Made by a program: the position numbers. DNA of 64,000 nucleotides, taken from Mizuhopecten yessoensis. Its lineage: Eukaryota. The DNA is taken from assembly GCF_002113885.1 (NCBI RefSeq), contig NW_018407597.1, forward strand, positions 379,711-443,710, written 5' to 3'. Shown piece by piece: positions 33,801-63,800 of this stretch (its first letter is position 1; the number at the start of each line of letters is the position of its first letter).

Positions 33801-36800
33801 TTTACGAATTAATCTCCTTATTTCGTTTGATGGCCAGGGGGGTTCATAAGATCTGATGGTTATTTTATTATTCGAAATACAATATTTAGCAATAGTAAGT
33901 AAAATATCTAAGAAATTTTTGACAGCATCATTAATCTAATCAAATTCACTCAATAAATTCCAGTTAACTGAGCTTAGTTTTTCCCTAAATAAATCGTAAT
34001 TTCCTAGGTCAAAAAGCCAAACGTTTCGCTTAAACACCTGCTGCACTGGCTTTGAAATATTAAAAGAACAGTAAATTGGACAATGATATCTAACCGGTTG
34101 GTCAAGGTAGCTTTCTCCAACGTAACATTTATTAATAAGGTTATTACTATTAGTACAGATTATATCTAACAATGACTCAGAGGCTTCTGTGATTCAACAA
34201 GCTGAGTTTGATTAAATGAAACAAGTATATCGCGTAAGTGGGACGAATGATGGTCTACTAGGGCATTGCATTCAAGTCGCCGGTTATCACAATATGATAA
34301 ATGCCTGTATTATACGCTTTTTCTATAGAATGCGAGATATGGGACCATATGATGACAGGAGAGTTTGGAGGCCGATAAAATGTACCATATAATATGTTCT
34401 CTGAACCAAGTACTTTTTTTTACCAGACACATTCAATGGTAGCTATCTCTAAATCTGATCTTCTCTTTGCAGGAATATTATATTTTACATAAACCGTTAT
34501 ACCACCGCCCATTCGATCAAGTCTGCAGTAGCAGAATGGGTCAGAATATCCAGGCAGGTTAAGGTCAGATCAGATATCTTTTAAATTTAACCATGTCTCA
34601 GTAAAGGATAAAATTGTTATATTACTTAACTCGGTGTAAAGAATATCGAGTTTTTGTTTGAGACTTTGAACATTAAGATGGACAAATGAAACATTACTGA
34701 CTGCATCGAGCTGGCCACTAATATTCGAAAATATAGATGAGGAAGACGAGCTAGAAGACATGGGACCAGGATTCAGTTCTATATCTCCAGATAACAACAA
34801 ATGCCAATAGTCCAAAGCACGACGTAGAGATATAGATAATTTATCAGTAGCGGACATGATAGAGGAGGAGATGCATGTATATTGTAAGTTGTTCTGCACA
34901 GAGAACGAGAACTGGCCAATAAGATTTATACAAAAGGTTATTATGAACAGCTCCCCCCCGAAAACCCCGAAAGTGATCTAATTAAAAAACTGACATCTCA
35001 ATCAAATAGATTCAGCATTTCATGAATATTTAGGAGATAGTTAACGTTCAGATTGCAGAATGTGTCATCAGAAACTGCAACTTCTTCGTAGGATAGTGTA
35101 CACAAAATTATGTTAACAACGTTAACACTATGTCAGATTAACAACATGAGAAAATACGATTTTTATATATAACTATTATAACATAATCATAAACAAATAT
35201 AAAAAATGTAGTGCAAATAAAACAACAATAAACAAAAAACAACAAATAATCGCGCCTAAGATTATCCATATTAGTACAGTTATGATTTCTTTGGATGGGA
35301 TGCTGCCAGACAATTTTGCAACACAGCGTACACAGTTATATATGTATGTAGCTCATGCCTGTCATCGGTGCAAATTTATGTATCCCATCTTTGTTGCTAT
35401 ATTACTAATAGAAGTCATCGTACTTCATATTGGTTTAATATTCATCTCGTCTTCAAAAATTGTGAACTTAAAATGCTACATTTTTTCTTTGTTATCAATA
35501 AAATGACCTTTAACGTTATTTCAAATCTTAAAGTGTTTTTTTAGGGGGTAGGGTGTTAATAAGTGCAACAAAATAGCTTCTGTCTCTGAACATAATTATC
35601 CAAGCTGACATAAATACAGTTATTATAGGAAACATAATAAATGTGAAAAATCTCGCATATCGAAATTGTAAATGGAAAACATAAGTACGCGAAATGAAAG
35701 TCTTACTAAATGAGGTAGGCGAATAAGGAAACTTTTGTTTTATTAAATAAGACAATTTGAAACTGTTCTTTGTACGTCAGGGGGACAATAAAATGGATTC
35801 GAAACATGTTATGTAACTTTATATTATCTTCTACGGGAGATTGGACGATCTAAACAATAACGTGTTGGGATGTGTGAGAGATATCTCATCCTCGTTAATG
35901 ATAATTATCGGACCTGCTAAGTCAGTAATATTGGGCTACGAATTACGCACGTGAGATGGATCTCATGGACTGGTGCTTGATATATAAAAAAGGTACTTTA
36001 TATATATATATATATATATATTTAAAAAGAAAAGAAATTGAAAAGATGGAAATATTTCATAGTTCTTACAGACCGTCATTGGCCTTATTTAACAATATAT
36101 TTATTTTCATTGTTTTCAATTTGAAACAATTCCAAACATTTCGCTTTCTCTTATTCCTCACCGCTATGAAGAATCTCTCCTTTTTGTTGACTTTCAAAAT
36201 TAAAAATGTTTGTTTGGCAATATTTCAATCTATATCAGAATAAAGCACGATTCAACAAAATATTTGTGAGCACGTGGGCATTTTACTTGTTACAATATAG
36301 TAGGGATTATTAACATTTGTATTTGTGCATCTATTAAAATCATAGCCTCAATTAATACAATGTTATAATACTTGCCAACTTCATGGACTGATACTTAAAA
36401 TGATATATACATGTATGTAAATGTTTATCTGTTTTTTAACAATAGCATCAGTGTAAACTTAAATATTGCTACATACATTTTTATTTTTAATGATATCTTT
36501 GGCACTTTTGAAACTAATACCCTATACATGCATCACGACAGCTGCCTGTTACACGAACTTGCATATATCACAGCATTTTCCAAGAACTGTAACATGACGG
36601 CGTTTTCAGGTAGTTAAGAACGAATGGCAATTTTAATACGAACGGACAGATAGCCAATATGTAAATACACATAACATTACAGCTCTTCCTGTTTTAACAC
36701 AAATATTCTTCCTGATTAACTAAATGGTCTACCAGTACAAATCAAGTTGCAAGACTAGACACCCGTCTAGCTTGTTTACGTCATGGTATCTCACGCCGTC

Positions 36801-60800: not shown

Positions 60801-63800
60801 GACACGGCAAGGGATACGGAAAGGGATACGGAAAGGGCTACGGAAGGGTTGAGAGCACTGTTATCCGTGCCCCCTACGCAGCGCCTATGCCAATGTATAT
60901 GCCACCCCCACCTGTAATGCCCGTGGGAGGATTCGGAGGATTCGGAGGAGACGATGGCATTTTCGGTCAAAACAACGGTTTGAGTAAGTAGCCAAATTTC
61001 TGAAGCAGATGTTTCATACTTGATTCTTTAAATAAATTGAAAGAAAAAAGTGTTTTGCATGTCTGCTGTATTTTTTTTACTTATTTGTAAACAAAATGCT
61101 TTTTAAATGTGCTAAATTTTCTATGTAATATTGGAGCAAATTTTACTGCATATCCCTTGTATATTGCTCATTTTAATGTTACTCAATTGAATAACTTTAA
61201 AAAGAGAAATGAAAATAACTTACATAAAAAGGTATGATGCGACAACATAAAAAACCTGTCATGTTTCTCAAGACGGCAAAAATGTTCAATAAAATGATTT
61301 TATTAACAAATGAATAAACCTAGCAAGAAAACTGTCCCGAAGTGAAGAAAAGCATTTTAATTTCTATCAGTTATTTTTATAAACTGACCTTTATGACGGG
61401 GTGTTCATTTTTGGTTACCAGACAAGCGAAAATCTTCAATCGAACTTAATTCAACTAAATGTGTGAAACCTAAAAAAAACACCAAAAAACCCCAACGAAG
61501 CTGCAGCCATCTTTGTTTCAATTAAGTAGCTTATGGTGTTCCAGAGGCTATATAGAAAATATTAATATTTTTCTTTTAAAAGTGTGACATATCGGATAGC
61601 AACACGTTTTAATAATCAGTGTGTTATTAAATCTGTTGGGAGCTTAAATAACTTAAGCTCATAAAATGCTGATGCAGAGAATGGGGAATGTGTGTAATGA
61701 ATGAATTGAATATTTTAATCAAAATATTAAGTTGGCCTGAAATCATATTTATTAGTAATCAATTTGCATTGTACCTGAAATATGTCAAAACTCCTTGCAC
61801 TAAATCGTATAAATACTTATTAATTTCGTTTCGTATTTTTCAGTCTTCCTGCTTTTGTTGCTGCCATTCCTGCTCAGTAACTCCAACGGAGGACTTCTCG
61901 GTTAATTTGTTATTCAACATGACTGTTATATCTGTCTCTACAACTACTATATATATGTAAGTATAACGCAATCTCTATCCAAAACATTCGCTAAGAGTAA
62001 GATACGGCGTAATTTTGAATGCATAAACACTAACTTATTTGCTCAATCTTTGAAAACAAAATCTCAAAAATGGGACGAATAATACATGCATAAACATTAA
62101 TGAAATAATTTATATTCAAAGGCAAGCAACACCGATTTATTTATAAAGATAGGTATTTTTTTAAATCTCTTAGAAAAGAAAAGAAAAAAACAGTGTGTAT
62201 TCTTGCAGTTGTAATTCATTTGACATTGACGCACATTAAAAATGATCCTGTCTCTAATATGATGTTTTTACTCGTTTCAGATCTCGCGCAATATCACGTT
62301 ATGTTAGGCTGAACTGTGGAAATCCGTCTTATCATTGTTGAATTGATGTATTTAAATATCATTTTTGTTGCCGCTCATCATTCATCAATAAAAATTGTAC
62401 AATAAAACATATGATTTGGACTTAATTTATGATACATATATATGGATTTATGATATATTATTATTTTCCATTGCTTATTTTTAACATTTTGTTATAATTT
62501 AGGGGAATATATATTATTGCTCACAAAATTGAACGCGATTTCATTTTCTAAAAAACAGTTTCTCATTTTTACGAAATACATCTTTATATTTTATCATAAA
62601 TGTAGCAACGTCAATTTTATGAGTGATAATATGTAATGCATTGGATTTTGATTAAATGTTCTGTACAAAAACAATGTGATTCGATATATTTTTTCACATA
62701 TAATCAACACGATTATAGCGTTTCTCGATTTCAATTTGATCTTGAAATATAATCGATGGCATATCTGCCTATTTCCATTGCTATTGTTGAAAAATGTATT
62801 ACAATGTTCAAATATGAAACGATGACCGATTAAATACGAAGAGATGATTTCAAGAAATTGAGAAGCAGTCAAGCTGTATTTCATGAAAAAAAAATCGATT
62901 TGTTGACGAGTGACATGCTACTATTTGATATAAAGTAATGAATGTGCTGTTTTCACCAACTAGCGCCCGTGGTATGATATACATAATGAAATAACTAATG
63001 CATTGTTATTGTAATATGTTACTAGGGTAATCATGACGTTCCATTGACTTATAGATTTAATAACCGATCACAGTTGTTCTGAGTTTCATCAGACATTAAA
63101 ATCATGTGGTTACTTATCAAATATGACAAATTATAAGATGCTAAACATATTCCCACATTCTTCATTCGTTGGATCATTTTCACGTGGAGATCAATGTTTT
63201 GTGATATTGACTATTCATTACTTTTTGAGTTTCTATTTTAGAAACATTCTGTCAATATTCTCTTCAAGATGTCACTTCAATTGCTCTCTGCCAAAATGCA
63301 GTATTATTCTCTTGGTTATTTTATTATATTTCATTTTAATAATGAAAAGAGCATTATTGCATATGTAATATGATGTTTAAGGAATTTTATATTGGTGAAT
63401 ATGCCTCAGTCAATATATCCTTTCGAGTCCATATAAATACAAATTACCTCAAACACATTGATAAATATCACACCACATAAATTCTATATAACACAGCAGT
63501 TACATGATTCATTGCTATAACGTAGACAGAATAGAACGATAAATGCTACAACTTATTAACACGAAGTAGGAGGAACTGAACTCGGCCTAGACACGAGATG
63601 ATAGCAGGATTCTAAGAGATTCCAAAACAGAATATTGTAAAATATGCAAACTAAAAAAAGTGATAAAAAACATTGTTACAAAAATCCATTAAGTACTGTT
63701 TTGTTATCTTCGAACAGGTTGGGTTATTACGGATTGATATGCATGTTCTTGACATTTACGATGATATGAAACTCAATTATTTACATAAATATTCAATGGC

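What the first reader, a model, noticed from the sequence alone, without database searches (positions are those of the whole stretch)
36700..62600. B2 and B3 look like chimeric genes from unequal crossing-over between two older paralogs
Seen: B1's promoter, exon 1 and intron 1 differ clearly from those of B2-B4, which match each other. B4's intron 2 (beyond about 61075), exon 3, UTR and downstream DNA differ clearly from those of B1-B3, which match each other. So B2 and B3 have a B4-type 5' part (including the PMPMYMPPPPVMP block) and a B1-type 3' part, with the switch near the end of exon 2 or start of intron 2. Known: this is the anti-Lepore-type product of unequal crossover. Inference: an ancestral pair expanded through the conserved exon 2, so copy-number variation among individuals is expected.
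Basis: partly seen in the sequence, partly recalled or inferred. Interest (0 to 1): 0.65.

Follow-up and report, generated by a model that had tools for sequence, protein, structure and literature searches.

The report
Chimeric genes in scallop tandem array
Four tandem copies of a small secreted glycine/tyrosine-rich scallop gene include two middle copies that join the front of the last copy to the back of the first, as unequal crossing-over would produce; it is a clean but ordinary example of how gene families grow.

Summary
The window is scallop DNA: B3's exon 2 translates letter for letter into Mizuhopecten yessoensis protein KP79_PYT04331. Four head-to-tail genes, B1-B4, lie 7266, 7200 and 8937 bp apart.

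- **5' side.** Upstream of exon 2, B2, B3 and B4 differ by K2P 0.03-0.08. B1 is an old paralogue: 0.34-0.39 in the promoter patch, unalignable elsewhere.
- **3' side.** From intron 2 onward, B1, B2 and B3 differ by 0.03-0.10. B4 is the old paralogue: 0.28-0.30.
- **Switch.** B2 and B3 change from B4-like to B1-like in the same 100-bp interval (B2 44798-44897), across the exon 2/intron 2 border. No permutation of 2000 reached the observed chi-square.
- **Spacers.** They are duplicated at the same young age as the gene halves, and the hybrids carry one in-frame exon 2 with no scar.

This fits an anti-Lepore-type homologous unequal exchange between an ancestral pair, followed by a second unit duplication.

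Untested: copy-number variation, relatives' loci, and whether B2 and B3 are two real copies. The assembly has an N at 47763, and the junction of the second event cannot be placed more narrowly than 46.5-49.5 kb.

The mechanism is known; the instance is new.

The parts
36896..38530 (+). Gene B1 (parental type 'A'). TATA 36896; exon 1 ends 36946; exon 2 37189-37616 (ATG 37202); exon 3 37979-38086 (stop 38038); putative non-coding exon 4 from 38409; AATAAA about 38523.
   Evidence: Landmarks mapped from B2 by alignment. Exon 3 frame translated. Exon structure taken from the database protein P0001.
44199..45760 (+). Gene B2 (chimeric: B4-type 5' part, B1-type 3' part). Exon 1 ends 44250; exon 2 44455-44846; exon 3 45208-45315; putative exon 4 from 45637.
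51400..52960 (+). Gene B3 (chimeric, same structure as B2). Exon 2 51655-52046; exon 3 52404-52511. Its exon 2 translation equals residues 13-138 of P0001 (M. yessoensis KP79_PYT04331).
60324..62410 (+). Gene B4 (parental type 'Z'). Exon 2 60592-60983; exon 3 61844-61956, with tail FLLLLLPFLLSNSNGGLLG; putative exon 4 from 62281.
44798..44897 (+). Exchange interval in B2: the last 49 nt of exon 2 plus the first 51 nt of intron 2. The last B1-odd marker is the 12-bp indel at 44797. The first B4-odd site is 44898.
   Evidence: It coincides with the 99-bp perfect B1-B4 identity run (B1 37568-37666, B4 60935-61033).
51998..52097 (+). The same exchange interval in B3.
   Evidence: One search gives the same bounding sites as in B2.
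37176..44441 (+). Repeat unit U1: B1 exon 2 and 3' part, spacer, then B2 promoter, exon 1 and intron 1.
44442..51641 (+). Repeat unit U2.
51642..60586 (+). Repeat unit U3. It is longer because of a private 1722-bp insertion at 54913-56634.
60587..61075 (+). Partial fourth unit: the shared segment 'm' (exon 2 plus 92 bp of intron 2), where B4 still matches B1-B3 at high identity.
36463..36953 (+). Old-paralogue homology of B1's upstream region and exon 1 to those of B2-B4 (65-74% identity).
61681..62688 (+). Old-paralogue homology of B4's distal intron 2, exon 3 and 3' region to those of B1-B3 (about 71-73% identity).
47763..47763 (.). Single N in unit U2. U2 lacks 41 alignment columns here relative to U1 and U3. 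Not filled.
41723..42582 (+). Local tandem duplication of about 430 bp, private to U1 (98.8% identical copies).
46800..47270 (+). A 471-bp segment present in U2 and U3 (54013-54483) and absent from U1.
24986..25820 (+). Gene A, an older and divergent member of the same family. Exon-2-like 24986-25301; exon-3-like 25754-25820 (stop 25804). The phase-1 intron is at the same position.
   Evidence: Family HMM against all ORFs of the window: E=2e-8 for exon 2 and 0.08 for exon 3. Sequence read.

Best explanation
The locus began as two head-to-tail paralogues of a small secreted Gly/Tyr-rich protein gene. They were A (today's B1) and Z (today's B4), separated by one spacer.

Their non-coding parts had diverged to roughly 0.3-0.4 substitutions per site. 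Exon 2 and the first ~100 bp of intron 2 stayed, or were made, nearly identical.

A misaligned homologous exchange (NAHR) took place within a ~100-bp tract at the exon 2/intron 2 border. The partners were Z on one chromatid and A on the other. It produced A - spacer - Z5'/A3' hybrid - spacer - Z, which is the anti-Lepore configuration.

Not long afterwards a second unequal exchange between the two ~7.2-kb units added one more unit, giving the two hybrids B2 and B3.

All four genes keep intact TATA boxes, splice sites, reading frames and poly(A) signals. The hybrids therefore express a B4-type mature protein from a B4-type promoter, with a B1-type C-terminal tail and 3' UTR.

Shown here: the mosaic structure, the common switch interval, the equal age of gene halves and spacers, and the intactness of the genes. 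Inferred: the recombination mechanism, the order of events, secretion, and expression.
For: - **Species and exon structure.** These come from P0001 and its relatives.
- **Segmental identity**. The 5' far region gives B2-B3 0.030, B3-B4 0.064 and B2-B4 0.077, with B1 unalignable (p=0.48-0.51). The 3' region (exon 3 onward) gives B1-B2 0.050, B1-B3 0.055 and B2-B3 0.034, while B4 versus the rest is 0.28-0.30.
- **One old whole-gene duplication.** The old paralogy of both ends has similar depth: 0.34-0.39 against 0.28-0.30.
- **Switch interval.** It is identical in B2 and B3. B2 has 149/10 B4-like/B1-like sites left of the break and 26/266 right of it. B3 has 151/7 and 29/256. In both, 0 of 2000 permutations reached the observed value.
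- **Site of exchange.** The interval equals the longest perfect B1-B4 identity run, 99 bp; the next longest is 56 bp.
- **Homologous exchange, not a non-homologous duplication.** Each hybrid has a single in-frame exon 2.
- **Spacers.** They are duplicated over the whole 7.2-kb period, with substitution identities of about 90-99%.
- **Second event.** Left part of the unit: U1-odd 61, U2-odd 37, U3-odd 44. Right part: U1-odd 80, U2-odd 53, U3-odd 156. The one-break model gains 10.4 lnL over no break.
- **Intactness.** Exon 3 is intact in all four copies. Landmarks are conserved.
- **Selection.** Exon 2 is under purifying selection: B1 versus B2 or B4 gives dN 0.036 and dS 0.168; B2 versus B4 gives dN 0.007 and dS 0.073.
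Against: - Within the shared 499-bp segment alone the switch is not significant for B2: 360 of 2000 permutations reached it. B2 carries a cluster of private changes there.
- B1 and B4 are much more alike in exon 2 (dS 0.17) and in the first ~120 bp of intron 2 (86-97% identity) than in the flanks. Coding constraint alone does not explain this. It needs an extra, earlier conversion or some constraint.
- The second event is not a clean single exchange. Its break is only placed between U2 46453 and 49507. One block (U2 48579-49373) shows the opposite affinity.
- Only one assembly was seen, and it has an N at 47763 inside that interval.
- There is no transcript, population or outgroup-locus evidence.
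Confidence: 0.8

Rival explanations
1. There is only one chimeric gene. B2 and B3 are two diverged haplotypes of a single unit that the assembler laid in tandem, so the true array is B1 - hybrid - B4.
For: - An N sits at 47763, where U2 lacks 41 alignment columns.
- It lies inside the broad interval where U2 changes from U3-like to U1-like (46453-49507).
- Bivalve genomes are highly heterozygous and hard to assemble, as stated for the scallop Chlamys farreri in passages of PMC5700196.
Against: - The sequence is colinear with the other units on both sides of the N. This is not what an end-to-end join of two haplotigs would normally give.
- The coincidence with the N is loose: the interval is 3 kb of a 7.2-kb unit.
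- The two 'copies' differ by 3-5% substitutions plus indels of 17-471 bp. That is several times the 0.81% within-individual polymorphism reported for C. farreri (PMC5700196, passage). This is a relative, not this species.
- Even if this rival is true, a chimeric gene is present in each gap-free stretch, so the main claim stands.
Confidence: 0.15
2. An old array of four genes was partly homogenised by gene conversion. B2-B4 were homogenised at the 5' end and B1-B3 at the 3' end, with no change in copy number.
For: - Mosaic blocks and locally discordant affinities exist.
- Exon 2 and the start of intron 2 are more alike between B1 and B4 than the flanks are.
Against: - The 4.5-6-kb spacers are homologous throughout and as young as the gene halves. 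Conversion tracts covering whole 7-kb units, spacers included, would be needed twice.
- No trace of old (K about 0.3) divergence remains in any spacer.
Confidence: 0.04
3. B2/B3 show the ancestral gene type. B1 and B4 are the recombinants: Lepore-type deletion fusions with now-lost outer paralogues.
For: The mosaic pattern alone is symmetrical, so it cannot polarise which genes are the hybrids.
Against: - It needs at least two more ancestral genes and two deletions, instead of two genes and two duplications.
- It does not explain why B1's 3' part, B4's 5' part and the spacers all have the same divergence from B2/B3.
- B1's Pro-rich block and B4's tail (PFLL) resemble the Ylistrum and Argopecten proteins. 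This fits the outer genes keeping older states.
Confidence: 0.03

Closest known systems
Haemoglobin anti-Lepore fusion genes (beta/delta-globin hybrids lying between intact delta and beta). Recalled from textbook knowledge, not from a call.
   Same: - The hybrid lies between two intact head-to-tail paralogues.
- It carries the 5' part of the downstream gene and the 3' part of the upstream gene.
- It has a single in-frame homologous switch.
- One gene-plus-spacer unit was gained.
   Different: - Here the hybrid appears as part of the reference array and was duplicated again.
- The units have since diverged by 3-8%, so the event is old rather than a rare new allele.
- No reciprocal (Lepore) deletion allele is known.
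Other NAHR-shaped tandem arrays (for example the red/green opsin genes and CYP21A2/CYP21A1P chimeras). Recalled, not from a call.
   Same: Unequal homologous exchange inside a conserved exon/intron tract creates hybrid genes and changes copy number.
   Different: Those arrays have documented population copy-number variation and phenotypes. None could be examined here.
Gly/Tyr-rich bivalve shell-matrix proteins (prisilkin-39, shematrins, KRMPs).
   Same: - The protein has a signal-peptide-like N-terminus and GYG-type low-complexity repeats.
- It evolves by repeat-unit reshuffling.
- An oyster relative of this family (P0012) carries the automatic name 'prisilkin-39'.
- A gene so named is a shell-field marker in oyster embryos (PMC12551290, passages). 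It is not shown to be P0012.
   Different: - No homology to the Pinctada prisilkin-39 protein itself was tested.
- This family has its own conserved tail (G[IL]FGGNG, a Leu-rich stretch with one Pro, an Asn-rich stretch, and a final Gly) and no Pfam family.
- No shell-proteome or expression evidence was seen.

Membership tests
Anti-Lepore-type product of unequal homologous crossing-over | Two intact, same-strand parental paralogues flank the hybrid. | tested here: met
   B1 and B4 are complete genes on the + strand. They are old paralogues at both ends: K2P 0.34-0.39 and 0.28-0.30.
Anti-Lepore-type product of unequal homologous crossing-over | The hybrid has the 5' part of the downstream parent and the 3' part of the upstream parent. 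| tested here: met
   B2: 149/10 B4-like/B1-like sites left of the break and 26/266 right of it. B3: 151/7 and 29/256. In both, 0 of 2000 permutations reached the observed value. Sliding identity agrees.
Anti-Lepore-type product of unequal homologous crossing-over | A single switch inside shared homology, in frame, with no duplicated or deleted junction sequence. | tested here: met
   The switch lies in B2 44798-44897. There is one exon 2 per hybrid and the ORF is intact. The interval is the longest perfect B1-B4 identity run, 99 bp.
Anti-Lepore-type product of unequal homologous crossing-over | The spacer is duplicated together with the gene halves and has the same age. | tested here: met
   Units align over the whole ~7.2-kb period. 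Young divergences are 0.03-0.08 in gene halves and spacers alike.
Anti-Lepore-type product of unequal homologous crossing-over | The ancestral two-gene state, the reciprocal deletion, or copy-number variants exist in relatives or in the population. | not testable with these tools
   No eukaryotic genome or read collection was available. Genome contigs holds only bacteria and archaea. Protein databases hold one member each for three scallop species.
Gly/Tyr-rich shell-matrix proteins (prisilkin-39 / shematrin / KRMP kind) | Secreted, with Gly/Tyr-rich low-complexity repeats. | tested here: inconclusive
   GYG-type repeats are seen directly. The signal peptide was judged by eye only, because no predictor was on hand.
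Gly/Tyr-rich shell-matrix proteins (prisilkin-39 / shematrin / KRMP kind) | Sequence homology to a characterised shell-matrix protein. | not tested
   Only automatic names of relatives were seen. Pfam gave 0 families at its cut-offs for 4 of 4 proteins. The atlas gave no lead: best score 0.75.
Gly/Tyr-rich shell-matrix proteins (prisilkin-39 / shematrin / KRMP kind) | Presence in a shell proteome, or mantle/shell-field expression. | not testable with these tools
   No paper holds the locus tag. Supplementary tables are closed.

The most novel reading that the evidence does not exclude
The hybrids are a functional innovation rather than neutral by-products. A single exchange rewired a lineage-specific bivalve secreted protein: B4-type promoter and mature domain, joined to a B1-type hydrophobic tail and 3' UTR. 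The hybrid was then amplified. The array remains an active NAHR hotspot, so scallops differ in copy number and dosage of a shell-field or mantle matrix protein, with effects on the shell.
Probability: 0.12. Interest if true: 0.5.

Novelty: new member of a known kind. Interest (0 to 1): 0.33.

Why it matters
This is a clean, datable example of hybrid-gene formation by unequal exchange. It lies in a lineage-restricted family of small secreted Gly/Tyr-rich proteins shared by scallops and oysters.

It shows how such low-complexity gene families expand and shuffle promoters, coding parts and UTRs.

It flags a 25-kb stretch of 93-97% identical 7-kb units. That stretch is a likely source of copy-number variation, and of assembly and annotation error: only one of the four genes has a protein record.

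The mechanism itself is textbook, so the finding does not open a new question.

Tried and rejected
- **Cluster look-up.** Cluster membership and accession numbers stayed unknown.
- **Family assignment.** Pfam gave nothing at its cut-offs. The only hit was TrAA12 on B1's repeats, at 17.7 bits against a cut-off of 30.9. The ESM atlas gave no usable lead.
- **Exhaustive protein search.** Searching with P0001 gave only 10 proteins at E<=0.001.
- **Papers.**
  - The locus tag gave 0 papers.
  - 'sulfur globule protein CV1' plus scallop gave 0.
  - 'unequal crossing' plus 'chimeric gene' plus bivalve gave 0.
  - 'anti-Lepore' plus mollusc gave 0.
  - A search on M. yessoensis shell matrix, glycine and tyrosine listed 5 papers, none opened.
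  - A search for this species' heterozygosity listed 10 of 31 papers, none opened.
- **M. yessoensis genome paper.** It is not held, so this species' own heterozygosity was not seen. I used a figure for Chlamys farreri instead.
- **Junction of the second duplication.**
  - Maximum chi-square over the whole unit peaked near 46500, but that run was confounded by B1's old exon-2 divergence.
  - With that part removed, the likelihood support set spans 46453-49507.
  - My first impression that the junction coincides tightly with the N was therefore dropped.
- **U3 insertion.** The 1722-bp insertion shows no clear terminal repeats and was left unclassified.
- **Non-homologous duplication.** A non-homologous tandem duplication with breakpoints at 37176 and 61075 was rejected, because it would leave two exon 2 copies in each hybrid.
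- **Not used.** No relative's locus could be examined.

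
Full report
**What the DNA is**

The window has low G+C, 29-38%. It carries an array with a period of about 7.2 kb between 36.7 and 62.7 kb.

Each unit holds an ORF for a small protein. The ORF encodes a signal-peptide-like start, an acidic DDVYDDDNYY stretch, GYG-type repeats, a Pro-rich block and GGDDGIFGQNNGL.

I searched B2's exon 2 translation alone and found three scallop proteins.
- The best hit is P0001, Mizuhopecten yessoensis 'hypothetical protein KP79_PYT04331'. 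Residues 13-138 of P0001 are identical to B3's exon 2 translation.
- The window is therefore Yesso scallop or a very near relative. It is not human.

- Exon 2 was searched alone.
- The exon 3 frames were translated alone.
- Full-length comparisons used the database protein P0001.

**Gene model**

P0001's C-terminus (ILMLLLLPLLLSNSNGGLLG) fixes two features. One is a phase-1 donor (GA|GTAAGT) at the end of exon 2. The other is a short exon 3, at B2 45208-45315.

All four copies have the following landmarks.
- A TATA box.
- A tiny 5' exon with a GT donor (GTAAGT; GTAAAT in B3).
- Exon 2 starting at CAG|ATATTC.
- An intact exon 3 with a stop codon.
- A GTAAGT donor after exon 3.
- A further conserved block that starts at an AG and ends at AATAAA. 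This is probably a fourth, non-coding exon.

The exon 3 tail differs between types. B1-B3 encode LMLLLLPLLLSNSNGGLLG and B4 encodes FLLLLLPFLLSNSNGGLLG.

tblastn finds exactly four copies in the window.

**Checking the observation**

*Self-BLAST.*
- B1 aligns with B2 and B3 only from 37176, and with B4 from 37184.
- B4 aligns with B2 and B3 at about 92% only up to 61075.
- Weak matches link B1's promoter to those of B3 and B4: 73-74% identity, E 2e-27 to 1e-30.
- Weak matches also link B4's 3' part to that of B1-B3: about 73% identity, E 1e-133 or lower.

*Four-way MAFFT alignment.* It gives the same picture in 150-bp windows and as K2P distances.

| Region (B2 coordinates) | Among the young copies | Old paralogue versus the rest |
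|---|---|---|
| Far 5' (43060-43900) | B2-B3 0.030, B3-B4 0.064, B2-B4 0.077 | B1: p = 0.48-0.51, unalignable |
| Promoter/exon 1 patch | B2/B3/B4 0.036-0.064 | B1: 0.34-0.39 |
| Exon 3 onward (45183-46047) | B1-B2 0.050, B1-B3 0.055, B2-B3 0.034 | B4: 0.28-0.30 |

*More sensitive BLAST.*
- It extends the old homology to B1 36463-36953 and B4 61681-62688.
- B4's intron 2 still matches to about 61105 at 86%, and then holds about 0.5 kb with no counterpart.

**Where the switch is**

- *B1-odd sites.* In the alignment, sites where B1 is the odd one run through exon 2 up to a 12-bp indel at B2 44797.
- *B4-odd sites.* The first site where B4 is the odd one is B2 44898.
- *Maximum chi-square test.* It puts the break between 44785 and 44898 in both B2 and B3.
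- *Wide region (44018-46047).*

| Copy | Informative sites | Left of break (B4-like / B1-like) | Right of break (B4-like / B1-like) | Permutations reaching it |
|---|---|---|---|---|
| B2 | 451 | 149 / 10 | 26 / 266 | 0 of 2000 |
| B3 | 443 | 151 / 7 | 29 / 256 | 0 of 2000 |

- *Restricted to the 499-bp shared segment.* The result is weak for B2 (35 sites; 360 of 2000 permutations reached it) and clear for B3 (33 sites; 4 of 2000).
- *Composition of the interval.* It covers the last 49 nt of exon 2 and the first 51 nt of intron 2.
- *Identity run.* The interval is also the longest run of perfect identity between the parental types B1 and B4: 99 bp, against a next-longest run of 56 bp. This agrees with homologous exchange. 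It is partly circular, because an exchange interval is by definition free of parental differences.

**Why unequal homologous exchange is the best reading**

1. The two ends of B1 and B4 are old paralogues of similar depth. One ancient whole-gene duplication suffices to explain both.
2. The hybrids lie between the parents. They have the 5' part of the downstream parent and the 3' part of the upstream parent. This is the anti-Lepore arrangement (mechanism recalled from textbook knowledge).
3. Each hybrid has one in-frame exon 2. A non-homologous duplication with ends at 37176 and 61075 would have left two.
4. The spacers are duplicated over the whole period, and they are as young as the gene halves.
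5. Exon 2 is under purifying selection. B1 versus B2 or B4 gives dN 0.036 and dS 0.168. B2 versus B4 gives dN 0.007 and dS 0.073.

**The second event**

I aligned the three full units and counted sites where one unit is odd.

| Part of the unit | U1-odd | U2-odd | U3-odd |
|---|---|---|---|
| After the first switch (columns 400-2400) | 61 | 37 | 44 |
| Last part (columns 5200-9200) | 80 | 53 | 156 |

- *Affinity of U2.* U2 is weakly U3-like early in the unit and clearly U1-like late in it. An unequal exchange between two units would give this pattern.
- *Timing.* The two events were close in time, with young distances of 0.03-0.05 against 0.05-0.08.
- *Junction.* It is badly localised. With B1's old exon 2 part removed, the likelihood support set spans U2 46453-49507, with a gain of 10.4 lnL over no break.
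- *Discordant block.* One block (U2 48579-49373) shows the opposite affinity. Later conversions are therefore likely.

**Caveats**

- The N at 47763 lies inside that broad interval, and U2 lacks 41 alignment columns there. I did not fill it.
- The sequence is colinear with the other units on both sides of the N.
- The B2 and B3 units differ by 3-5% substitutions plus indels. That is several times the 0.81% within-individual polymorphism reported for the related scallop Chlamys farreri (PMC5700196, passages only).
- The M. yessoensis genome paper is not held.
- I therefore cannot exclude that B2 and B3 are two haplotypes of one hybrid. In that case, each gap-free stretch (up to 47762, and from 47764 on) still contains a hybrid gene next to a parent.
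- B1 and B4 are more alike in exon 2 (dS 0.17) and at the start of intron 2 than in their flanks. This suggests an earlier conversion of roughly 0.5 kb, which then served as the substrate for the exchange. That step is inference.

**The gene family**

- *Exhaustive search.* Searching with P0001 found 10 proteins at E<=0.001. A profile of eight of the family found 11.
- *Taxa.* The named hits are from scallops (Mizuhopecten, Ylistrum, Argopecten) and oysters (Saccostrea, Magallana, Crassostrea, Ostrea).
- *Names.* They are automatic: 'sulfur globule protein CV1-like', 'keratin-associated protein 6-2-like', 'prisilkin-39'.
- *Shared architecture.* A signal-like start, Gly/Tyr repeats, a Pro-rich block and a conserved tail. 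The last residue is Gly in 8 of 8 proteins.
- *No family assignment.* Pfam has no family for them and the atlas gave no lead.
- *Functional lead.* A gene named prisilkin-39 marks shell-field cells in oyster embryos (PMC12551290, passages). I could not tie it to this family, so a shell-matrix role is only a lead.
- *Fifth member.* A much older member, gene A, lies 12 kb upstream on the same strand with the same intron phase.
- *Annotation gap.* Only one of the four B genes has a protein record.

**Novelty and verdict**

Four literature searches found no report of this locus or of such hybrids in bivalves. Supplementary tables, which might list the locus tag, are closed.

The mechanism is textbook and the instance is new. 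Interest is modest.

The following stayed untested: copy-number variation, the state of the locus in relatives, expression, and the reality of two separate hybrids.

Noticed in passing
window 24986-25820 (+): A fifth, much more divergent member of the same family ('gene A'), 12 kb upstream of B1. It has the same phase-1 intron and a tail LFLLFLLPILLNDNLSG. Family HMM gives E=2e-8 for its exon 2. Pfam finds nothing in it.
   Followed up: partly
window 51626-51667 (B3) and protein P0001: The database model KP79_PYT04331 starts 12 codons upstream of the MRT start used by its Ylistrum and Argopecten relatives. It probably reads into intron 1. Only B3 of the four genes has a protein record.
   Followed up: partly
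window 45637-45760 (B2); 38409-, 52834-, 62281- in the other copies: This 3' block starts at an AG and ends at AATAAA. It is 86-90% conserved between B4 and B1-B3, which is more than coding exon 3 (83-85%). It is likely a fourth non-coding exon. The stop codon lies 46-48 nt before the exon 3 donor.
   Followed up: partly
family alignment A1 (P0001-P0008): The tail is conserved: G[IL]FGGNG, a Leu-rich stretch with one invariant Pro, an Asn-rich stretch, and an invariant final Gly in 8 of 8 proteins. A terminal Gly is the usual amidation signal of secreted peptides (recalled). This was not tested.
   Followed up: no
window 36755, 44054, 51254, 60178 (+): A 17-mer (TTAGACACCCGTCTGGC; 2 mismatches in B1) occurs about 145 bp upstream of the TATA box in all four promoters and nowhere else in the window. 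There are 4 matches against 0.03 expected. It is a candidate regulatory site kept across the old paralogues.
   Followed up: partly
window 44630-44700, 51830-51900, 37370-37445: The Gly-Tyr coding repeats change by whole 12-bp units. B3 has the NGYG unit moved relative to B2 and B4, and B1 has 30 extra bp. This inflates B3's apparent dN (0.035-0.042).
   Followed up: partly
window 54913-56634: A 1722-bp insertion private to unit U3 explains the longer B3-B4 spacing. It has no clear terminal repeats and no other copy in the window.
   Followed up: partly
window 44880-44915 (B2 intron 2): A cluster of changes private to B2 sits just after the exchange interval. It makes B2 the most divergent copy there: K2P 0.074-0.098 to the others, against B1-B3 0.022.
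   Followed up: no
window 32400-33743 (-) and 4846-5460 (-): Reverse-transcriptase (RVT_1) ORF fragments, probably non-LTR retroelement remains. One set lies between gene A and B1.
   Followed up: partly
window 23114-24106 (-): A 330-codon open frame runs into the 47-base N run at 23122-23168. It has only a weak, sub-threshold QRICH1-domain match: E 0.009, 16.5 bits against a cut-off of 30.8.
   Followed up: no
window 1-279: A direct repeat offset by 104 bp at the window's start (1-175 versus 105-279, 96.6% identity).
   Followed up: no
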